The notes: generated by a model not told the origin, from the letters alone. Counted from the stretch's first letter, positions 1,168 to 20,054 are shown. The stretch is 64,000 nt of DNA from a virus (IMGVR_UViG_3300029998_000020:9130-73129), one strand, 5' to 3'. Program-made: numbers and translations.

Positions 1168-1204
1168 TTATATAAAGTTACAAAAATGTTTTGTAATTAC
1201 CAAA

Positions 1205-1414
1205 TTATTTTTGAATTATTTTAATTTCATAGCCGATATTACTCAATTCCTTGATTATATCTTTCACCATCTGTTCAGCTTCTTCAACTTGAAGAACAGC
1301 ATACATACCTTCACCATTTTCTGTGGTTCTGAATATGTATATTGCCTCCAATAGTGCAAATTTTATTTTTTCGTTGTCTTCTTTCAAAGATAATTCTTCT
1401 AACTTGTTATCCAT
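1205..1414 (-). CDS. Hypothetical protein
   Basis: 69 aa ORF in operon. Confidence 0.6.
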   Translation of the reverse strand: MDNKLEELSLKEDNEKIKFALLEAIYIFRTTENGEGMYAVLQVEEAEQMVKDIIKELSNIGYEIKIIQK

Positions 1415-1416
1415 AT

Positions 1417-1830
1417 TTAATTTAATTCTTTATAGTAACCTTTATATTTTATGTTTGTTGTAGAATAGCCAAGTTTTTCCATTTTATCAGGTTTTACTGT
1501 TTCAACATAACCATCCAAATAAAGCCAAGTAATACCTATTTCTTTACATTTTTCTTCATAGTGTTTTAATAATTTAACACCAATTCCAGTATTTTGATAT
1601 TTAGGTAATACACCAACACTCCATAGCATGGAGCCTTGGCATAATAATTTTTCACCTAATACAAATCCAACACATTCTTCATCTAATTCATAGGTGAAAA
1701 ATAAATCTGTTAGACTTATAAGTTCTAAATACCAATCATAGTAAGATATTCCACCTTCAGTAGATGTGTTGCTTAATCCTGGTGCATTTGAAATTTCACA
1801 GATTTTTTAATAAATCTTTTTCAATTGTTT
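1417..1830 (-). pseudogene. GNAT (RimI-like) acetyltransferase with +1 frameshift in an A6 run
   Basis: ATG at 1830 (MIRKTIEKDLL); removing one A at 1803-1808 joins it to a frame ...CVGFVLGEKLLCQGSMLWSVGVLPKYQNTGIGVKLL (GNAT motif A). Confidence 0.75.
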
Positions 1831-1859
1831 TTCTTATCATTTTTAGGTTTAATTATTTA

Positions 1860-1890
1860 CAAATATACAAAAAATAATTGACATATCAAA
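1860..1890 (-). promoter_or_regulatory. Bacteroidota sigma70-type promoter
   Basis: TTTG-N19-TATATTTG upstream of the GNAT gene. Confidence 0.7.
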
Positions 1891-2172
1891 ATTTATTTGG
1901 TTATGTTTTTATCTAAATATTCTTTCCACATCTGTTCAACAAATTCTGAACGATTTATATTGTTATCTTTGAGGTATTTATCTATCTTATCAAAAACATC
2001 ATTATTTATTGATATGCTTATGTTCTTCTTCTTTTCTTCTGTTTCTTTTTTTGGTCTACCCATGATTTATTTTATATTTTACTATTATATATGAAAAAAT
2101 ATTCTTGGTTTAAAAATAGAAAAATATGACTTATTTTTATTTATATATAGATAAAAATGATACACAATTATT

Positions 2173-2334
2173 ATGAAAACAGAAAGAAACACAAAAGTAA
2201 TGTCAATAACTATAGATAAGGATGTATATGACAAAATATCAGAATTAGTTAATAACAAATCCAAATTTACTGAATGGCTATTCATTAACTATTTAGATAA
2301 CATCGGAATTGATGTAAAAAATATAAAATTTTAA
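2173..2334 (+). CDS. Ribbon-helix-helix (CopG-like) small DNA-binding protein; not in ORF track
   Basis: MKTERNTKVMSITIDKDVYDKISELVNNKSKFTEWLFINYL..., 53 aa, 1 nt before the HNH gene. Confidence 0.65.
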   Translation: MKTERNTKVMSITIDKDVYDKISELVNNKSKFTEWLFINYLDNIGIDVKNIKF

Positions 2335-2335
2335 A

Positions 2336-3199
2336 ATGGATTATTTAAAAATATATAAAAAATTGATAACAAATGCAATAGAAAGGACAATTTCTGATAA
2401 TGAAGTATATGAAAAACATCATATAATATCAAAATGTATATTCAATGATAACTATTCTATATCAGTATTTAATGATTATTATAAATTAGTCAAATCAAAA
2501 TATAGTCTTAGTAATGTAGTTAAATTAACACTAAGAGAGCATTATATTTCACATTTATTGTTGGTTAGAATTTTTGAAAAAAATAAAAATTGTCATTTTA
2601 AATTATTATGTGCTGCAAATTTTTTGACCAACAGAACAAAAAATAATAGGGAATATGAATGGCAAAAGAAAGAATACATTGAGAAATTAAAAATATCTAT
2701 GACTGGAAAGCCAAGTAGAGCAAAAGGAAAAAAATGGTCAGAAGAATCAAAGAAAAATAAATCAGGCACAAATCATTATATGTATAATAAAAATTATGAT
2801 GAACTTTATGGATTAGAAAAATCTCAAGAGTTGAAAGAAAATAGAAGAAATTCACAATTAGGTAGAATAAAATCAACTGAAGAAAAAAATAAATTATCTA
2901 ACAGAATATTCACAGAAGAATGGAAAAATAATATATCAAAAAATAAAAAAGGTAAAAAACTATCAGAAACAAATAAAGATAATATTAAGAAGTTTATGTT
3001 AAATCCAGATTTGAACCCGAATGTGGATCAGACATTATATAAATTTTACCATATAGATGGCAGGGAAATTATATCAAGAAAAATTGAAATGAAAAAAAAT
3101 TATAATTGTACAGACATACACAAAATAATAAGCGGTATTAGAAAAATTTCTAAAGGATGGAGGTATAAAGGAGAAATAATAAAAAAAAGTGATGAATAA
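2336..3199 (+). CDS. Free-standing HNH homing endonuclease with NUMOD3-like DNA-binding repeats
   Basis: YEKHHII...NVVKLTLREHYISHLLL; K-rich S.E.K..S repeats. Confidence 0.8.
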   Translation: MDYLKIYKKLITNAIERTISDNEVYEKHHIISKCIFNDNYSISVFNDYYKLVKSKYSLSNVVKLTLREHYISHLLLVRIFEKNKNCHFKLLCAANFLTNRTKNNREYEWQKKEYIEKLKISMTGKPSRAKGKKWSEESKKNKSGTNHYMYNKNYDELYGLEKSQELKENRRNSQLGRIKSTEEKNKLSNRIFTEEWKNNISKNKKGKKLSETNKDNIKKFMLNPDLNPNVDQTLYKFYHIDGREIISRKIEMKKNYNCTDIHKIISGIRKISKGWRYKGEIIKKSDE

Positions 3200-3216
3200 T
3201 CATCACTTTTTAATTT

Positions 3217-4296
3217 TTAAATTTTATATAGAGGACAATCACGATTACAACGAATAAGGTTATTTCTAAAATTAATAGTCTTTTCGTTATTCCAAATATC
3301 ATCAATAAAATTACCACATTTTAAAACATTTAGTCCTTCTTTCCAATTTTCTGTATTTGGAGTAAATGAGCAAGGAAAATAATTTCCTTTGACATCAATA
3401 TAGCTACTATAACAACTTGACTCACATGGCTCTACACATTGCTTCATTTTGTTTCTGTATTCATCTGATAATGAGTTATCTGATTCCAAATATTTTAGAA
3501 ATTTGTGACTACTGCAACTATCAAATCCTATACTTATTTTTTCATCTAATGCAAATTTGCAAAGTTCATTAAACTTATCCTGTGGTAAAGGGTGAAATCT
3601 ATTTTCTGCTCTACCTTTAGTTTTTAAACTTAGTAAAACTAATGCGTTAAGATTTTTTAATCTTTCATCATTTTTACAATCTTTAATTACTTGCATTGTA
3701 TAGTCAAAATTTTCCAAGCAAATCATATCGTGAATGTTTACTTGTGTCATTCCTCTATCAGTTAATTCTTTTATTGCGTTGTAACTATTGTCTTTATTAT
3801 AAGATGTACCAACTGATACAGCAACTGCTCCCATTGTTTTTGATAATCTATCATACAATTCTGATGTCATTCGTGATCCATTTATTGTTACATTAGGAAC
3901 AACATCTTGAGAGCGAGTATAATCAAAAATATCCCACATATCTGGATTTGAATCAATGTCTGTTATTCCAAATGCTACCTGAGTTACAGTTAAAGGAAGC
4001 TTAGAAAAAATGTTTTTATATGTGTCTAATGACATATATTCACCATCTTTATTGTTGCTCTTGTAGCAAAATGAACAGTTTTGTTTACACGCTGTGTCAA
4101 TTTCAATATCAGCAATTTCAGGTAATCCTATTTCTAAATCACCATCATCATCTTCTGTTTTACCCCATCTGGCAAAAAACCCTGTTTTTTTGTTAAATAA
4201 GAAATTGTAGTTTTCTGATTTTAAAATTTTAACATCTTTATTATCTACAATTAGTGCTTCTTCACCGTTTGAAAGTTTTAATTTAGTTTGTTTCAT
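3217..4296 (-). CDS. Radical SAM protein with SPASM/twitch-like C-terminus
   Basis: CKQNCSFC (CxxxCxxC); C-terminal PCES.C...YIDVKGNYFPC...C. Confidence 0.85.
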   Translation of the reverse strand: MKQTKLKLSNGEEALIVDNKDVKILKSENYNFLFNKKTGFFARWGKTEDDDGDLEIGLPEIADIEIDTACKQNCSFCYKSNNKDGEYMSLDTYKNIFSKLPLTVTQVAFGITDIDSNPDMWDIFDYTRSQDVVPNVTINGSRMTSELYDRLSKTMGAVAVSVGTSYNKDNSYNAIKELTDRGMTQVNIHDMICLENFDYTMQVIKDCKNDERLKNLNALVLLSLKTKGRAENRFHPLPQDKFNELCKFALDEKISIGFDSCSSHKFLKYLESDNSLSDEYRNKMKQCVEPCESSCYSSYIDVKGNYFPCSFTPNTENWKEGLNVLKCGNFIDDIWNNEKTINFRNNLIRCNRDCPLYKI

Positions 4297-14132: not shown

Positions 14133-16007
14133 TTATTTTATTTCCTCAAAATCCACGTCTGTTACATTTTCAGAATCATCTTTTTTGTCAGATGAATTGC
14201 TTTCATTCGTTGACTGATTTTTTGATTCTTCATAAAGTTTACCACTAATGTTTTGCCAAACATCATTAAGTTCTTTGGTGTATTTATCAATATTATCAAC
14301 ATTTTGAGTTTTGTGAGCTTCTTTAAGATTATCAAGTTTAGAATTCAATTCAGTTTTGTTTTCTTCATTCAATTTATCACCAAATTCTTCAATTTGTTTT
14401 TCAGTTTGAAAAATCATTGAGTCAGCTTGATTCAACTTATCAACTTTTTCTTTTTCTTTCTTATCAGCATCAGAATTTTGTTCAGCTTCCATTTTCATTC
14501 TTTCAATCTCTTCTTTTGTTAGAGATGAATTACCTTCAATCCTAATGTCATTCTTTTTTCCTGTTGCTTTATCAACTGCAGTAACTGTCAAAATATTATT
14601 TGCATCAATTGAAAACGAAATTTCTATTTGCGGTACTCCTCGTCTGGCTGGCATAATTCCATCTAAATTAAAAGTTCCCAACATTTTATTATCCTTAAAC
14701 ATACTTCTATTTCCAGTTGAAACATTAATCTGAACACCAGGCTGATTGTCAGTGGCTGTACTGAATATTTGTGTCTTAGTTGTAGGAATTGTTGTATTAG
14801 CCTCTACCATGACACTGGCTACACCGCCCATACTCTCCAGTGAGAAGTTTAAAGCTGTAACATCGAGTAATAAGATGTCAGTTGTATCACCAGCAAGAAC
14901 AGATGCTTGTATAGCTGCACCTGATGCAATTGCAGTATCAGGATTAAGTGACTTATTCGCTTTCTTACCAAAATATTTTTCAATACTTTCTGACAAATAT
15001 GGAATTCTAGTGCTACCTCCAACAAGTACAATTTCGTCAATATCTGAAACTTTCTTACCACTTTTATTCATTGATGATTGAATCAATGATATTGTTTTAT
15101 CAACATAGAATTGAATCAATTGTTCAAATTTAGATCTTGTTAATTTTTGAACCAAATGTTTAGGTTGTCCATCTACAGCAGTGATGTATGGTAAATTTAT
15201 TTCTGTTTGTGTAGTATTAGACAATTCTATTTTTGCTTTTTCTGATGCTTCTGTAACACGTTGTAGAGCCATTGGATCTTTACGAATATCAACGCCTGTT
15301 TCTTTTAAAAATTCATCAGATATAAAATTCACAAGTGCGTCATCAATTAAATTACCACCTAAATCTAAATCACCATCAGTTCCAATAACTTCAAATAATC
15401 CGTCCTCTATATCTAAAACTGAAAAATCACTTGTACACCCACCACTATCAACTATCATATAAAGTTTACCAGTTTTATCTTTAATATTTAATGATGCTGC
15501 TGTTGGTTCAGATATAATTCTATCAACAGTAAATCCTGCTATTTCACCTGCAACTTTTGTACTGCTTCTTTCATCTGAATTGAAATATGCTGGAGTTGTT
15601 ATGACCGCATTGGTTACATTTGTTCCAAGGTAATCTTCTGCTGTTTTTTTCATTTTTTGAAGGATCATTGCAGAAATTTCTTCTGGTGAATATATTCTTT
15701 CACCAATTTTTACACCAGCCTTACCATTATTATCAACTATATCATAAGGACGTTTAAGATGTTTAACTTCCTCATAAGTTCTACCAATAAGTCTTTTGAT
15801 ATTAAAAATTGTGTTTTTTGGATTTAATGCTGCTTGTCTTTTTGCAGATTCACCAACTTTAATTTCTCCTGTTTTTTCATCAAATGATACAATTGAAGGA
15901 GTTGATAGCGATCCTTCTGAATTAGGTATGACAATTGTTTGTCCACCTTCTACTATAGATACGGCTGAATTGTATGAACCTAAATCTATTCCAATAATTT
16001 TTCCCAT
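14133..16007 (-). CDS. dnaK: Hsp70 chaperone DnaK
   Basis: MGKIIGIDLG, IKRLIGR, EPTAA, VGGSTRIP, DNQPGV, RGVPQIEISF, C-terminal DVDFEEIK. Confidence 0.97.
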   Translation of the reverse strand: MGKIIGIDLGSYNSAVSIVEGGQTIVIPNSEGSLSTPSIVSFDEKTGEIKVGESAKRQAALNPKNTIFNIKRLIGRTYEEVKHLKRPYDIVDNNGKAGVKIGERIYSPEEISAMILQKMKKTAEDYLGTNVTNAVITTPAYFNSDERSSTKVAGEIAGFTVDRIISEPTAASLNIKDKTGKLYMIVDSGGCTSDFSVLDIEDGLFEVIGTDGDLDLGGNLIDDALVNFISDEFLKETGVDIRKDPMALQRVTEASEKAKIELSNTTQTEINLPYITAVDGQPKHLVQKLTRSKFEQLIQFYVDKTISLIQSSMNKSGKKVSDIDEIVLVGGSTRIPYLSESIEKYFGKKANKSLNPDTAIASGAAIQASVLAGDTTDILLLDVTALNFSLESMGGVASVMVEANTTIPTTKTQIFSTATDNQPGVQINVSTGNRSMFKDNKMLGTFNLDGIMPARRGVPQIEISFSIDANNILTVTAVDKATGKKNDIRIEGNSSLTKEEIERMKMEAEQNSDADKKEKEKVDKLNQADSMIFQTEKQIEEFGDKLNEENKTELNSKLDNLKEAHKTQNVDNIDKYTKELNDVWQNISGKLYEESKNQSTNESNSSDKKDDSENVTDVDFEEIK

Positions 16008-16025: not shown

Positions 16026-16259
16026 TTATTTTTTATTAATTTTTATTAATTGTAATTTTCTATATTCTTTTAGTGATATGAATCTGTTAGCATCAAATCT
16101 ACCTTTTATATTAGTTAATCCTACACTATTAACATTATAACTATAACAATACTCATCTATGACATACGTAGAATATTTTTTTAAATTCTTATATGGTTCA
16201 AAAGTAGTAGCATCATCACCATCATCAATACAAACAACTATATCTCCTATTTTAAACAT
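16026..16259 (-). CDS. KIGD-type small protein with C-terminal tag
   Basis: MFKIGDIVVCIDD...FISLKEYRKLQLIKIN. Confidence 0.75.
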   Translation of the reverse strand: MFKIGDIVVCIDDGDDATTFEPYKNLKKYSTYVIDEYCYSYNVNSVGLTNIKGRFDANRFISLKEYRKLQLIKINKK

Positions 16260-16920: not shown

Positions 16921-17793
16921 TTAAAACTTTTTCATTTTTTGGTAAGAAATTTCATTTCTTTCGTTACTACGTTGCTTATCTTTCTTTTTTTGTTCTTTCT
17001 TGTCCTTCCAAGATGTACCTTCAGATTTATCTTTGATATTTAAGATTGGTTTGATTTTATCAAGAATCAAAGCAGTAGGTCCAATTGCTTTTTCAATCAT
17101 TTCAGAGTTTTTGTAAGCAAATGGTGATTCATCAATTGTACTTTTACATACAGAAGTTGAATATATACCTTTCATTACTCTCTGAAAGTCTTTTAAATCA
17201 ACTGACTCTTTTGCTTTTGATCTTGACATCAAACGACCAGAACCATGTGGAGCTGAGTTATTCCAATCTTCATTTGATTTACCTTCACATATAAGTATTC
17301 CATCTCTCATATTGAATGGTATAATCATTTTTTCTCCAACATATGAAGATATAGCACCTTTTCTTATGATAAAGTCTTTGAAATCCACATAGTTATGTAT
17401 TGAATGAATTTCTTCATCAAATTTTTTGATATTCAATGCTTTTTTTATCAAAGACAACATAGTTTTTCTGCTCCATAGAGCATATTGTTGAGCAAAAATC
17501 ATATCAAATAGATAACCAATAAGATATTCTCCGTCTAAATATTCTTTGCCAATATTAAGACTGTATCTTGTTCTCAATTCTTTTATTTTTTTATCAATAT
17601 CAGATTTTGGATAAGTATTCATAGTAATGTCATCCAATTCCATGTTATATTCTTTGGTTGCAACAAATACTTTACCATTTGCTACTTTAGTCCAGTGTTC
17701 AGCTATTTTCAAACCAAAGTTTCTTGAGCCAGAGTGAACTGTTACCCAATAATCATTAGTCTTATCTGACTTACCAAGTTCAATAAAGTGATT
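16921..17793 (-). CDS. rtcB: RNA ligase RtcB, exon 2
   Basis: NHFIELG, VHSGSRNFG, HNY, SAPHGSGR.MSR, DESP.AYK. Confidence 0.92.
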   Translation of the reverse strand, partial: NHFIELGKSDKTNDYWVTVHSGSRNFGLKIAEHWTKVANGKVFVATKEYNMELDDITMNTYPKSDIDKKIKELRTRYSLNIGKEYLDGEYLIGYLFDMIFAQQYALWSRKTMLSLIKKALNIKKFDEEIHSIHNYVDFKDFIIRKGAISSYVGEKMIIPFNMRDGILICEGKSNEDWNNSAPHGSGRLMSRSKAKESVDLKDFQRVMKGIYSTSVCKSTIDESPFAYKNSEMIEKAIGPTALILDKIKPILNIKDKSEGTSWKDKKEQKKKDKQRSNERNEISYQKMKKF

Positions 17794-18887
17794 CAATTTT
17801 GTTACTATTATTTTAATTTCAATCTAAATAACCTCATTTTTATAGATTGCTTTGTTCTTTTAAGATTTTCTATTGATTCAGATATATCATTATTTATAAT
17901 ATAATTATCTTCATAGTCTGTCCATATTTTACGTTCAAAATCTATTTTTTTGATATTAATTGGTCTTTCCCAATTTAATATTTTTTGAGCAGAATCATAT
18001 TTTCTATTTATACTCATACAATCTTTATAATATAATATTTCAATTATTTTTTGAGAATTTTCATTCATCACCATTATATTATATAAGTTATCTCTTTTAT
18101 TTTTATTTGTTATTTTTTTATATCCAATAATGTTAGATAAAAAAACAACAAATTGTTCAGCAAGTTTACTAGAACATGTAACTAAAGATATGAAAGGTAA
18201 TCCTTTTTTTGTAAATCCTAATGATCCATCGCCATCTATAACTCCTCTCCAGTAATCAATTTCTATTATATTATCTGGTTTCTGAATTGTGTGTGATTTT
18301 TTACCAACAGGTAAATACTTTTTAAATTCATTTCTTGTTTCTAATTCAAATATTTTTAATGCTGATGTATTTGAAATATATTTGTATTCTTTAATATTAA
18401 TATTTCTTGTTCTTTCAGTTATTGAAACATTACAATTAAGAATAGATTTTATATATTTTAATATATTATCATCACTTTTATTTATTTCAAGTGTGATTCT
18501 TCCTCTATTTCTAGTTGATTCGTATAAATTACCATCAGTTTGTAATAAACCTATAATGTATGCATGTTTCTTATTTAAAATGTCTATTTTCATAATGTGT
18601 TTTTATTTGTATATATAATTTCACTTTATTGAAAATTTACATTTCATTGAAATTGTAATAACGAGATAGACATTTCTGCTATCTTCAATATCTTCTTATT
18701 AAATATTGTTCAGAATGTACCTTTTACCTTTGTGTATTACAGTGAGATAAAACAAGTCCCTCCATTCGTTACAGGGTGTTATCTAAAATGACAGAGCACT
18801 TCCCTCGGTATTAGCATCACAGCCGTCCACCGATTTGGACGATTTTAACTACTATTAGCTATTAACTAATACGGTGGCAATCAATTC
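17794..18887 (-). mobile_element. Self-splicing group I intron (IA-like) in rtcB, carrying a LAGLIDADG homing endonuclease
   Basis: 5' exon ends GGUGGU pairing with intron GCCACC (U.G at splice site); UGAUU pairs with 3' exon AAUCA (P10); P7 GAAUG(18763-67)/CAUUC(18713-17); terminal G at 17794; splicing restores TLGGG|NHFIE. Confidence 0.93.
17808..18593 (-). CDS. Intron-encoded double-motif LAGLIDADG homing endonuclease
   Basis: YIIGLLQTDG and YWRGVIDGDG motifs. Confidence 0.9.
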   Translation of the reverse strand: MKIDILNKKHAYIIGLLQTDGNLYESTRNRGRITLEINKSDDNILKYIKSILNCNVSITERTRNINIKEYKYISNTSALKIFELETRNEFKKYLPVGKKSHTIQKPDNIIEIDYWRGVIDGDGSLGFTKKGLPFISLVTCSSKLAEQFVVFLSNIIGYKKITNKNKRDNLYNIMVMNENSQKIIEILYYKDCMSINRKYDSAQKILNWERPINIKKIDFERKIWTDYEDNYIINNDISESIENLKRTKQSIKMRLFRLKLK

Positions 18888-19409
18888 ACCACCGCCTAAC
18901 GTTCCAATTGATTTATAAAATTTACCTTCGTCAATACCTATATCTTTCAATTTTGATGTTAGCCATTTTTCATTGTATGTAGGTGATTCATAAGAAGTTC
19001 CAAATTTTTCATTAAATTTTACAATGAAATTATCCGCAATTACTTGAACATCGCCAAACGGTATATTTTTAAATTTAATATCTTCGTGCATACCAAATCC
19101 CATAGGAACATTTTCACGTATAAGATTGTCAATTTTCTCTAAATCTAATGAAGTCTTACCTGAAAAACTTGCGCTAAGCATCCCGCAGCCCAAATCTACT
19201 CCGATCGTCGACGGCTTAATGTATTTACCTAATTCTTGTGTATATCCGATTACGCATCCCGATCCAACATGTGTATCTGGCATTATTCTGATTTTCAATC
19301 CTTTAGATGTCTCAGAATTAATACTATCATATATTTGAGTATATACTCCTTCTTCAACTTCATCGATAAATATTTTAGCGTCAGTATATTTACCTTTTAA
19401 TTCAATCAT
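18888..19409 (-). CDS. rtcB: RNA ligase RtcB, exon 1
   Basis: IMPDTHVG, IGVDLGCG, SIGTLGGG; spliced product 464 aa. Confidence 0.92.
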
Positions 19410-19460
19410 AATTTACCTCCTTTTTTTAATTGATTTTAATTATTATTTTAATATATTTTG

Positions 19461-19490
19461 CAAATGTACTACATTTATTTTGATTGACAA
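19461..19490 (-). promoter_or_regulatory. Bacteroidota sigma70-type promoter for rtcB
   Basis: TTG-N19-TACATTTG. Confidence 0.7.
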
Positions 19491-19732
19491 AATATTTCAT
19501 TCAATTTATTTATTTTATTTATTTTATTCATTCTTAAAACTCTTTTACTAATGAAAAATGATCCATAACTTATATAACATATAACTCCAGCATCTGTCAT
19601 TATTGATATAGCTCCAAGCATTATTTCTAATACTTTATAATCTTTGCCTACTGAAATAAGGTGATCATTTGTGTTATCAATTTTGATGCAAGTAACAATT
19701 TCACCAATTTTATATTTATTTATTTTTTTCAT
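19475..19732 (-). CDS. KIG-type small protein with C-terminal tag
   Basis: YKIGEIVTCI...VLRMNKINKI. Confidence 0.7.
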   Translation of the reverse strand: MKKINKYKIGEIVTCIKIDNTNDHLISVGKDYKVLEIMLGAISIMTDAGVICYISYGSFFISKRVLRMNKINKINKLNEIFCQSK

Positions 19733-20054
19733 TTATTTTATTAAGTTTCAATGTTCTATATTCTTTTACCCCAATGAATCTTTTCATATCAAAAACAGTA
19801 TGTCCATGTATCTTTTCAACTTCATCTAATATATATGATGTGTTTTCATATGTACTACTGGTATTATCAATTTTGTCTCCACAATTTCCATCATCTCCCC
19901 AATATGTATGAATTTCTTTAATTGTATAATATTTATACTTTTCTAATGGATTTATTTTATGATATTCTAAAATACAAGAAGAATAATCATAAAATATTTC
20001 CTTTGAGTAAGGTTTATCATCAATACAAACCATAATATCACCTACTTTGTACAT
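19716..20054 (-). CDS. KVGD-type small protein with C-terminal tag
   Basis: MYKVGDIMVCIDD...FIGVKEYRTLKLNKIN. Confidence 0.75.
   Translation of the reverse strand: MYKVGDIMVCIDDKPYSKEIFYDYSSCILEYHKINPLEKYKYYTIKEIHTYWGDDGNCGDKIDNTSSTYENTSYILDEVEKIHGHTVFDMKRFIGVKEYRTLKLNKINEKNK

What the first reader, a model, noticed from the sequence alone, without database searches (positions are those of the whole stretch)
17794..18887. Group I intron splitting the active-site GGG|NH motif of a phage RtcB RNA ligase
Seen: P1 with U.G at the 5' splice site, a P10 guide (UGAUU/AAUCA), terminal omega-G, and a P7 with compensatory changes (GAAUG/CAUUC instead of the usual GACUA/UAGUC). A LAGLIDADG gene lies near the 3' end with its own late-type TTATATATA motif. 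Splicing yields a 464-aa RtcB and restores the metal-binding NH. Phage group I introns are best known in td, nrd, pol and lysin genes and usually carry GIY-YIG/HNH endonucleases, so an rtcB host with a LAGLIDADG passenger looks unusual. An RNA-repair ligase whose expression depends on RNA splicing is also curious.
Basis: partly seen in the sequence, partly recalled or inferred. Interest (0 to 1): 0.75.

Follow-up and report, generated by a model that had tools for sequence, protein, structure and literature searches.

The report
Mobile group I intron splitting phage rtcB
The RNA-repair ligase gene (rtcB) of an uncultured giant peat phage is interrupted, exactly inside its conserved catalytic GGGNH motif, by a self-splicing-type group I intron that carries its own DNA-cutting "homing" enzyme; it is a normal kind of selfish element, but in a host gene and site that seem not to have been described.

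Summary
Confirmed. On the minus strand, rtcB exon 1 (19409-18888) and exon 2 (17793-16921) match the RtcB profile at 15-153 and 154-425. They are separated by 1094 nt (18887-17794). Related peat phages (94% aa identity) have an uninterrupted 464-aa gene lacking exactly these 1094 nt, and both alleles occur in the same peat DNA samples.

The insert follows U, ends in G, and has P1 with U.G and a P10 guide. Eight same-site introns from other contigs, four without an ORF, support a full group I fold: 99.5% of cells paired and 31 of 55 pairs with compensatory changes. This includes P7, the exon-IGS pair in P1, and P10. The 261-aa ORF in the P9.2 loop is an intact two-motif LAGLIDADG endonuclease (pLDDT 92.8).

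Rfam does not detect this ribozyme. Same-site introns in cultured Bacillus phages (BSP36, Goe27; unannotated) score 72.6 bits. Splicing itself was not shown because no RNA data were available. The "late promoter" motif is not above chance.

Verdict: a new member of a known kind, of moderate interest.

The parts
19416..19420 (-). Shine-Dalgarno GGAGG of rtcB, 6 nt upstream of the ATG at 19409
   Evidence: sequence
18888..19409 (-). rtcB exon 1 (174 aa; carries the DTH and GVDLGCG metal-site motifs and ends ...GTLGGG)
   Evidence: Pfam RtcB 15-153 of 426; PHROG 1075 56-205; tblastn against continuous homologues
17794..18887 (-). group I intron, 1094 nt. It follows U18888 and ends with omega-G at 17794.
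   Evidence: exactly absent from alleles 94% identical in protein and from contigs of four peat DNA runs; covariation-supported fold
18872..18894 (-). P1 hairpin: 5' exon CGGUGGU (18894-18888), loop that contains the P10 guide UGAUU (18883-18879), internal guide GCCACCG (18878-18872)
   Evidence: 7 pairs, 100% paired in 8 introns. Exon GGU/GGA covaries with guide A/U, and U.G is invariant. P10 is UGAUU/AAUCA here and UGGUU/AACCA in L030.
18853..18871 (-). P2 hairpin (UAUUAG / CUAAUA)
   Evidence: 5 of 6 pairs with compensatory changes
18756..18840 (-). P3 (GUCC 18840-18837 with GGAC 18759-18756), enclosing J3/4 AAAU, P4 (18832-18828/18810-18806), P5 (18824-18822/18815-18813), P6 with an AA bulge (18804-18797/18778-18773), and the P7 5' strand
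   Evidence: P4, P5 and P6 covary. P3 is invariant, so it is neither supported nor contradicted. The Rfam alignment of the ORF-less relative places the same helices.
18712..18769 (-). P7 (A18769, bulged C18768, GAAUG 18767-18763, pairing with CAUUCU 18717-18712), enclosing the P3 3' strand and P8 (18752-18746/18728-18722). The G-C then A-U pairs next to the bulge are the presumed guanosine-binding site.
   Evidence: P7: 3 of 5 pairs compensatory, 7 different strand pairs all complementary. The extra pair is A-U, U-A or G-C with a bulge. P8: 4 of 7 pairs compensatory.
18664..18708 (-). P9 (18708-18703/18691-18686) and P9.1 (18684-18679/18669-18664, conserved loop CAGAAAUGU)
   Evidence: 5 of 6 and 6 of 6 pairs compensatory; also predicted by RNAalifold
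17801..18662 (-). P9.2 (GUUAUUA 18662-18656 with UAGUAAC 17807-17801), whose loop holds the endonuclease gene
   Evidence: Inferred from the sequence. ORF-less relatives have a short hairpin at this place and ORF-bearing relatives have their ORF here. Not tested by covariation.
17808..18593 (-). LAGLIDADG homing endonuclease gene (261 aa + stop). Motifs are IIGLLQTDG and RGVIDGDGS, followed by a C-terminal three-helix tail.
   Evidence: Pfam LAGLIDADG_3 38.1 bits, cut-off 22.5; phrog_4645; D20/G21 and D120-S124 invariant in 28 relatives; model pLDDT 92.8; best folds are bI3 maturase, I-Tsp061I, I-AniI, I-SceI
18610..18618 (-).
   Evidence: Present, but not enriched in the window. No Shine-Dalgarno sequence in front of this ATG.
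16921..17793 (-). rtcB exon 2 (290 aa + stop; begins NHFIELG; carries VHSGSR, IHNY and APHGSGR)
   Evidence: Pfam RtcB 154-425; PHROG 1075 206-452; dN/dS 0.065 against an intronless allele

Best explanation
Window 17794-18887 (minus strand) is a mobile group I intron inside the rtcB gene of an uncultured, very large peat phage.

Splicing (inferred from the anatomy and from established group I chemistry):
- The pre-mRNA folds into the group I core, P1-P9.2, with the P3/P7 pseudoknot.
- A free guanosine bound at the G-C/A-U pairs of P7 attacks after the U of the U.G pair in P1.
- The freed 5' exon, held by the internal guide GCCACC and aligned to the 3' exon by P10 (UGAUU/AAUCA), attacks after the terminal G.
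- This joins ...GGU to AAU... and restores the catalytic GGGNH motif of a 464-aa RNA ligase.

Mobility (inferred):
- The intron's P9.2 loop carries an intact two-motif LAGLIDADG homing endonuclease.
- In mixed infections this enzyme would cut the intronless rtcB allele of related phages at or near GGTGGT|AAYCAC.
- Repair from the intron-bearing copy would then spread the intron (homing).

Shown here: the exact insertion, the intronless alleles, the conserved and covarying ribozyme fold, purifying selection on the exons, and the intact endonuclease.

Not shown: splicing, DNA cleavage and homing.
For: 1. The two gene halves abut in the Pfam and PHROG RtcB profiles.
2. Alleles 93.75% identical in protein are continuous and lack exactly 1094 nt. 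In four peat DNA runs a contig joins 17790 to 18888, with only the Asn codon changed to AAC. In X1 another contig covers 17761-19107 without a difference, so both alleles coexist.
3. Eight further introns sit at the same codon boundary in RtcB genes that are 25-76% identical to this one. Four of them (253-284 nt) have no ORF. All follow U and end in G.
4. On the alignment of eight introns, 99.5% of 437 cells pair and 31 of 55 pairs show compensatory changes. None of 500 shuffles reaches this on four of the five measures (2 of 500 on the fifth, further pair types), and slid controls pair only 38-49%. RNAalifold finds the same helices on its own.
5. P7 covaries in seven versions and has the canonical bulge next to an invariant G-C/A-U. 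P1 covaries between the exon's Gly codon and the guide. P10 covaries with the Asn codon.
6. The ORF-less relative L028 aligns to Rfam RF00028 over the whole model (21.1 bits, E 0.002, below the cut-off). Same-site introns of a sister lineage in Bacillus phage BSP36 and in L078 score 72.6 and 75.4 bits.
7. dN/dS of the spliced CDS against intronless L002 is 0.065 at 89% nt identity.
8. The endonuclease keeps both catalytic Asp residues, folds with pLDDT 92.8, and matches monomeric LAGLIDADG enzymes.
Against: - No RNA evidence: splicing was not observed.
- Rfam gives no hit in the window itself, even at E<=10 on the intron alone or at E<=1 on the whole record.
- P3 is invariant, so it is untested.
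- P9.2 and any P9.0 in this copy are inferred only.
- The endonuclease ATG has no Shine-Dalgarno sequence, so how and when it is translated is open.
- The low dN/dS would also be seen if the interruption were very recent.
Confidence: 0.9

Rival explanations
1. The intron is real but cannot splice on its own. It needs its LAGLIDADG protein as a maturase (as I-AniI and bI3 do) or a host or phage factor. RtcB production would then be gated by expression of the intron ORF.
For: The best structural matches of the ORF product include the bI3 maturase and the bifunctional I-AniI. The core is compact, with short P3, P5 and P7, and scores poorly against Rfam.
Against: Four same-site relatives with the same core have no ORF at all, and one has a broken ORF, yet their exons are intact. 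That argues against an obligatory cis-encoded maturase. Fold similarity to maturases only reflects the common LAGLIDADG fold.
Confidence: 0.07
2. The insertion has inactivated rtcB. The intron is a splicing-dead relic and the gene is a young pseudogene.
For: No transcript data. No Rfam hit in the window.
Against: Every core pair of this copy is intact and fits the covarying consensus. The U.G pair, the omega-G and P10 are present. The exons have no stops or frameshifts and give dN/dS 0.065. The intron-bearing allele is as abundant as the intronless one in the peat run X1, depth 9.4 against 8.4.
Confidence: 0.02
3. The two halves are translated separately and assemble into a split RtcB. The sequence between them is just an inserted free-standing endonuclease gene.
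For: Gene callers give a 291-aa ORF from a TTG that overlaps the last 3 nt of the intron. Public records annotate the halves as separate genes.
Against: There is no ribosome-binding site before that TTG, and it is not conserved: L053 ends ...GACG and L078 ends ...ACCG. ORF-less inserts of about 255-285 nt at the same site cannot be endonuclease cassettes. The covarying P1 and P10 pairings between exon and insert only make sense for RNA splicing. The break also falls inside the catalytic GGGNH motif.
Confidence: 0.01

Closest known systems
Same-site intron in rtcB of cultured Bacillus subtilis phages BSP36 (MH707436.1, about 119429-120548) and vB_BsuM-Goe27/20/17 and 278BB001 (Herelleviridae, Bastillevirinae)
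   Same: Identical insertion point (GGAGGT|...ATTG|AATCAC). The LAGLIDADG gene is 41% identical over its full length and sits in the same place. P9, P9.1 with the CAGAAAUGA loop, and the GUAACA tail are shared.
   Different: The P3-P8 core has the textbook P/Q/R/S elements (P7 GACUA/UAGUC) and a long P5 extension, and it scores 72.6 bits in Rfam. The window's core is shorter and is not detected. In GenBank these introns are not annotated as introns: the halves are called 'tRNA processing protein 1/2', or only the 3' half is called rtcB. A 2025 survey of Bastillevirinae introns lists only pol, terL, thyA and RNR hosts (PMC11878797).
Mobile group I introns of phage T4 (td, nrdB, nrdD) and of SPO1/SP82 DNA polymerase
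   Same: Self-splicing intron in a conserved catalytic region of a phage enzyme gene, an endonuclease ORF looped out of a peripheral helix, and presence/absence polymorphism among related phages (established knowledge; reviews PMC2988022 and PMC3984707, listed).
   Different: The host gene is rtcB. The passenger is LAGLIDADG rather than GIY-YIG or HNH. No P7.1/P7.2 was seen. The subgroup was not assigned here.
Monomeric two-domain LAGLIDADG homing endonucleases and maturases (I-AniI, bI3, I-SceI, I-Tsp061I, I-SmaMI)
   Same: Fold (Foldseek probability 1.00, TM about 0.55). Two LAGLIDADG helices with conserved Asp. Encoded in an intron.
   Different: Only 12-17% sequence identity. An extra conserved C-terminal three-helix tail (W-x2-ED ... 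R-T-x-x-S-I-x-x-R-L) has no Pfam match.
Inteins in RtcB (the Pyrococcus horikoshii RtcB intein, from memory; here L020 and L021)
   Same: A selfish element with a homing function placed in a catalytic motif of the same protein.
   Different: Protein splicing, in frame, at the metal-binding Cys (GVDIGC|...HN|CGML), not RNA splicing at GGG|NH.
Free-standing endonucleases that target intron insertion sites (cyanophage psbA F-CphI; T4 mobE/I-TevIII; the Bonocora and Shub model)
   Same: Members of this LAGLIDADG family also occur free-standing next to intact rtcB (L077, L079), and ORF-less introns occupy the same site. PMC2790892 and PMC2988022 discuss the concept.
   Different: It was not tested whether the free-standing members cut the same site. 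The psbA and mobE enzymes are not LAGLIDADG (my own knowledge).

Membership tests
Group I intron | 5' splice site after a U that forms a U.G wobble at the end of P1 with an internal guide sequence | tested here: met
   CGGUGGU/GCCACCG. U.G is invariant in 8 introns, and the exon-guide pair covaries U-A/A-U.
Group I intron | Terminal omega-G and P10 pairing between the guide and the 3' exon | tested here: met
   G17794. UGAUU/AAUCA here, UGGUU/AACCA in L030. All 8 introns end in G.
Group I intron | Conserved core P3-P8 in the order P3-P4-P5-P6-P7-P3'-P8-P7' (P3/P7 pseudoknot) | tested here: met
   99.5% paired, 31 of 55 pairs compensatory, slid controls 38-49%. RNAalifold agrees. P3 itself never varies, so it is untested.
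Group I intron | Guanosine-binding site: a G-C pair in P7 next to a bulged nucleotide, followed by A-U | tested here: met
   A-bulge(C)-G-A... pairing with ...U-C-U. G-C and A-U are invariant, and the flanking pair covaries A-U/U-A/G-C. Function is not tested.
Group I intron | Score above the gathering cut-off of Rfam RF00028 | tested here: not met
   No hit in the window. The ORF-less relative L028 scores 21.1 bits against a cut-off of 50. Same-site sister-lineage introns score 72.6 and 75.4 bits. The 786-nt ORF insert and the divergent core explain the miss. This is a detection criterion, not a biological one.
Group I intron | Guanosine-dependent self-splicing | not testable with these tools
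   No RNA run was listed.
LAGLIDADG homing endonuclease (monomeric, two-motif) | Two LAGLIDADG helices, each ending in a catalytic acidic residue | tested here: met
   IIGLLQTDG and RGVIDGDGS. D20/G21 and D120-S124 are invariant in 28 relatives. Pfam PF14528 38.1 bits, cut-off 22.5.
LAGLIDADG homing endonuclease (monomeric, two-motif) | Two alpha-beta-beta-alpha-beta-beta-alpha domains forming a DNA-binding saddle | tested here: met
   Model pLDDT 92.8, pTM 0.83. Top PDB matches are all LAGLIDADG enzymes, E down to 2.8e-09.
LAGLIDADG homing endonuclease (monomeric, two-motif) | Site-specific cleavage of the intronless allele | not testable with these tools
   Needs an enzyme assay.
RtcB 3'-phosphate RNA ligase (host gene) | Full-length domain with metal-binding and guanylylation residues | tested here: met
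   The profile is covered 15-425 by the two exons. D45, H47, D72, C75, N175, H176, H194, H307 and H357 are invariant in 14 intronless relatives, and their motifs (DTH, GVDLGC, NH, VHSGSR, IHN, PHGSGR) are present in the spliced product. GGGNHF aligns with GSGNHF of T. thermophilus RtcB, 2epg. The roles of these residues are from my own knowledge of the P. horikoshii and E. coli enzymes.

The most novel reading that the evidence does not exclude
The GGG|NH codon boundary of rtcB may be a long-standing homing hot spot served by one LAGLIDADG lineage in every stage of the 'endonuclease invades a pre-existing intron at its own target site' pathway. The stages seen here are:
- free-standing next to intact rtcB (L077, L079);
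- sense passenger (window, L030, L053, BSP36);
- antisense passenger (L078);
- decaying passenger (L029);
- ORF-less introns (L028, L033, L036, L056).

These are spread over at least three ribozyme lineages and over RtcB proteins down to 25% identity. One gene (L021) carries both this intron site and an intein. If so, this would be a rich natural series for testing how composite mobile introns form, available in cultivable Bacillus phages. In addition, the endonuclease might double as a maturase for the reduced core.
Probability: 0.45. Interest if true: 0.55.

Novelty: new member of a known kind. Interest (0 to 1): 0.42.

Why it matters
1. It adds rtcB, an RNA-repair ligase that phages are thought to use against host tRNA-cutting defences, to the short list of phage genes known to host group I introns. 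The same site is occupied in cultured Bacillus phages, where the intron is unannotated and the gene is reported as two or three separate genes.
2. It gives a ribozyme lineage that the only Rfam group I model misses. That lineage now has a covariation-backed structure from which a model could be built.
3. Gene callers turn such loci into 'RtcB' fragments of about 180 and 291 aa, using a false TTG start made of the last intron bases. This pollutes protein databases.
4. Free-standing, intron-borne (both orientations), decaying and absent endonuclease genes coexist at one site. This offers a test bed for models of mobile-intron origin.

Tried and rejected
- Rfam found nothing group-I-like in the window: not at gathering threshold, not on 17500-19200 at E<=10, and not with RF00028 on the whole 92.8-kb record.
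- Expression: no RNA holder was listed for the stretch, so splicing could not be checked.
- DNA pattern scans:
  - The J8/7-P7 pattern found nothing in viral contigs.
  - A 22-mer of the core found nothing in 185,579 species genomes.
  - An 18-mer gave 41 loci in viral and metagenome contigs, but only 8 loci (5 distinct introns) were real. The rest were chance matches in unrelated genes.
- The search for related loci with the endonuclease found no relatives in viral contigs.
- TTATATATA as a late promoter: not enriched. The generic sigma-70 scan is at background, 29 against 23 +/- 4.6.
- Pfam on the C-terminal 60 residues of the endonuclease gave no family. A Myb/SANT-like reading of that tail is only an impression.
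- I looked by eye for a P9.0 pairing (J7/9 with the two bases before omega-G) and for an L2-to-3'-tail pairing. Neither covaries consistently across the nine introns, so I dropped both.
- Subgroup assignment: by memory the R and S elements resemble those of small bacterial IC3 introns such as Azoarcus, and there is no P7.1/P7.2. I had no subgroup models, so I make no claim.
- A second copy of the intron or endonuclease in this record: none.

Full report
**What is in the window.** The window is part of a 92.8-kb IMG/VR virus record. CheckV rates it about 13% complete, which implies a very large phage. Its DNA is held by many peat metagenomes.

On the minus strand an rtcB gene starts at 19409, behind a strong GGAGG ribosome-binding site. 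It is in two pieces:
- 19409-18888 (174 aa) matches the Pfam RtcB profile at positions 15-153.
- 17793-16921 (290 aa) matches positions 154-425.

PHROG 1075 shows the same abutting halves, 56-205 and 206-452. Between them lie 1094 nt with stops in all frames of the host gene and a 261-aa ORF at 18593-17808.

**The insertion is exact and polymorphic.** Of 25 related viral loci, 22 carry a continuous rtcB. Four of these (L002, L003, L010, L018) are 93.75% identical over all 464 residues of the conceptually spliced product. The DNA alignment needs one gap of exactly 1094 nt.

Contigs of four peat DNA runs join 17790 to 18888, with only the three bases between changed. On the plus strand they read GTT, which makes the Asn codon AAC instead of AAT. 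In run X1 another contig covers 17761-19107 without a single difference. Intron-bearing and intronless alleles, about 10% apart in DNA, therefore coexist in the same samples.

The spliced coding sequence against intronless L002 gives dN/dS 0.065 at 89% nucleotide identity. The interrupted gene is, or until very recently was, under the same purifying selection as an intact one.

**The boundaries obey group I rules.** Read:
- The 5' exon ends GGCGGUGGU.
- The intron begins GAAUUGAUUGCCACCG.
- CGGUGGU pairs with GCCACCG (P1), with U.G at the splice site.
- UGAUU, just 5' of the guide, pairs with the first five bases of exon 2, AAUCA (P10).
- The intron ends in G (17794).

Shifting both borders by one base would also give Gly-Asn. 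Only the stated borders fit P1 and P10.

**Relatives give the structure.** The protein search with exon 2 returned, besides hundreds of 460-aa RtcBs, several products of about 291 aa. Their contigs, together with a DNA-pattern scan, gave more introns at the same codon boundary:

| Locus | Intron length | ORF state |
|---|---|---|
| L028 | 256 nt | none |
| L033 | 266 nt | none |
| L036 | 253 nt | none |
| L056 (= L051) | 284 nt | none |
| L029 | 677 nt | broken |
| L030 | 1074 nt | intact |
| L053 | 1023 nt | intact |
| L032 (= L059) | cut by the contig end | ORF runs off the contig end |

Most of the 41 pattern hits were chance matches in unrelated genes, and I discarded them. The host RtcBs of L033, L036, L053 and L056 are only 32-45% identical to the window's.

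On an alignment of eight introns (A1) I wrote down P1, P2, P3, P4, P5, P6, P7, P8, P9 and P9.1. The results:
- 99.5% of 437 cells form standard pairs.
- 31 of 55 pairs have changes on both sides.
- None of 500 shuffles reaches these values. The one exception is the count of further pair types, which 2 of 500 shuffles reach.
- Sliding the 3' partners by 1-3 columns drops pairing to 38-49%.

RNAalifold, run independently on the same alignment, recovers P1, P2, P4-P9.1. It cannot draw the P3/P7 pseudoknot.

It is extended by one more covarying pair (A-U, U-A, G-C) across a bulged base, next to an invariant G-C and A-U. That is the canonical layout of the guanosine-binding site (established knowledge from the Tetrahymena and Azoarcus ribozymes).

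The exon takes part in the covariation. Gly codon GGU pairs with guide GCCACC, and GGA pairs with GCCUCC. Asn codon AAU pairs with UGAUU, and AAC pairs with UGGUU. P3 never varies, so it is neither supported nor contradicted.

In the ORF-less relatives a short hairpin (P9.2) follows P9.1. In the window, GUUAUUA (18662-18656) can pair with UAGUAAC (17807-17801) around the ORF. This is inferred and was not tested.

**Database models.** Rfam finds nothing in the window. The ORF-less L028 intron aligns end to end to RF00028 at 21.1 bits (E 0.002 in a 281-nt search, below the 50-bit cut-off), with P1-P6 placed as above. The ribozyme is therefore a divergent, compact lineage, and the 786-nt ORF insert further hides it.

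**The passenger.**
- The ORF hits Pfam LAGLIDADG_3 (38.1 bits, cut-off 22.5) and phrog_4645.
- A search of 5.8 billion clusters gives only 112 relatives.
- In an alignment of 28 relatives, the Asp-Gly of motif 1 and the DGDGS of motif 2 are invariant.
- The AlphaFold model is confident (pLDDT 92.8, pTM 0.83).
- Its best PDB matches are all monomeric LAGLIDADG enzymes: bI3 maturase, I-Tsp061I, I-AniI, I-SceI.
- A conserved C-terminal three-helix tail has no Pfam match.
- The ORF has no Shine-Dalgarno sequence.
- The TTATATATA 16 nt upstream is not above chance in this AT-rich window: 18 found, 10 +/- 3.7 expected.

**The same thing in cultured phages.** A tblastn search of GenBank phages with the endonuclease finds full-length relatives, 41% identical, in Bacillus subtilis phages BSP36, 278BB001 and vB_BsuM-Goe17/20/27. 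There the gene lies between 'putative tRNA processing protein 1' and '2' (BSP36), or just before a truncated 'rtcB' (Goe27).

The junctions are GGAGGT|AAAAGAGACTGCCTCC... and ...ATTG|AATCAC, the same site. That intron scores 72.6 bits in Rfam. It shares P9, P9.1 with its CAGAAAUGA loop, and the 3' tail with the window's intron. It differs in having textbook P/Q/R/S elements and a long P5 arm.

Other same-site cases:
- A 25%-identical rtcB (L078) has the same-site intron (75.4 bits) with the endonuclease gene on the opposite strand.
- L021 has a third, small ribozyme type at the same site, and also an intein at the catalytic Cys.
- Other family members are free-standing beside intact rtcB (L077, L079) or elsewhere (L076 and one next to a DNA ligase).

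**Literature.** Full-text searches for rtcB together with group I introns, self-splicing, homing endonucleases or phages returned no paper whose title or abstract describes an intron in rtcB, and the three papers I opened do not describe one either. A 2025 survey of introns in Bastillevirinae lists DNA polymerase, terminase, thymidylate synthase and ribonucleotide reductase as hosts. It contains neither 'RtcB' nor 'ligase' (PMC11878797). A jumbo-phage review notes RtcB as a phage RNA-repair ligase and mentions introns only in a DNA polymerase gene (PMC7824862). The library does not cover subscription journals, so 'not described' is provisional. My context sampling agrees in part: 3 of 5 sampled members, plus all intron-borne ones.

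**Verdict.** It is a standard mobile group I intron with a LAGLIDADG homing endonuclease. What is new is the host gene and site, plus a ribozyme lineage that Rfam does not see. Splicing, cleavage and homing are inferred, not shown. The link between 'RNA ligase' and 'RNA splicing' is coincidental, because group I splicing needs no ligase.

Noticed in passing
L020:2780-3720 and L021:2700-3610 (IMGVR_UViG_3300032163_000003 and IMGVR_UViG_3300014204_000139): These rtcB genes carry an in-frame intein at the metal-binding cysteine (GVDIGC|F...VHN|CGML). L021 also has a small (about 225 nt) group I intron of a different ribozyme type (P7 GACUA/UAGUC) at the same GGG|NH site. One gene thus holds both a protein-splicing and an RNA-splicing element.
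   Followed up: partly
L072 (MH707436.1, Bacillus phage BSP36) 2165-3284; L073 (OM728304.1, vB_BsuM-Goe27), same place: Cultured Bacillus phages have an unannotated 1120-nt group I intron (Rfam 72.6 bits) with a LAGLIDADG gene in rtcB. GenBank lists the pieces as separate genes. The annotated starts of the 3' half (a GTG inside the intron, or the TTG formed by the last intron bases) are artefacts.
   Followed up: partly
L078:642-964 and 1204-3569 (Logan contig of about 209 kb): A bacterial-type RNase P RNA (Rfam 127.7 bits) lies between an RNA ligase gene and an intron-split rtcB. The LAGLIDADG gene sits antisense inside that intron. I did not determine whether the contig is a phage or a small bacterial genome.
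   Followed up: no
window 17794-17796; proteins P0001, P0016, P0023 (291 aa): The last three intron bases, TTG, are taken as a start codon by ORF callers. Public protein collections therefore hold many 291-aa 'RtcB' fragments that mark intron-bearing alleles.
   Followed up: partly
window 18625-18650 and the equivalent places in L029, L030, L072: A short motif, (A/G)AAAUGU(A/G)A, lies 25-45 nt upstream of the endonuclease start in four introns whose surrounding sequence differs. Its meaning is unknown. The peat copies lack a Shine-Dalgarno sequence, while L053, L032 and BSP36 have one.
   Followed up: no
window 14133-16007 (minus strand): A full-length DnaK/Hsp70-like gene (624 aa) lies about 0.9 kb downstream of rtcB in this phage. 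Small paralogous genes ending in a basic R-x-x-K-L-x-x-[IL] tail flank rtcB on both sides (16026-16259, 19475-20054). Other notes of this scan already describe the tail.
   Followed up: no
L076:2001-2780 (LR756498.1, 332-kb uncultured phage): A 50%-identical member of the same LAGLIDADG family is free-standing between small ORFs and is not next to rtcB. The family is therefore not strictly tied to rtcB.
   Followed up: partly
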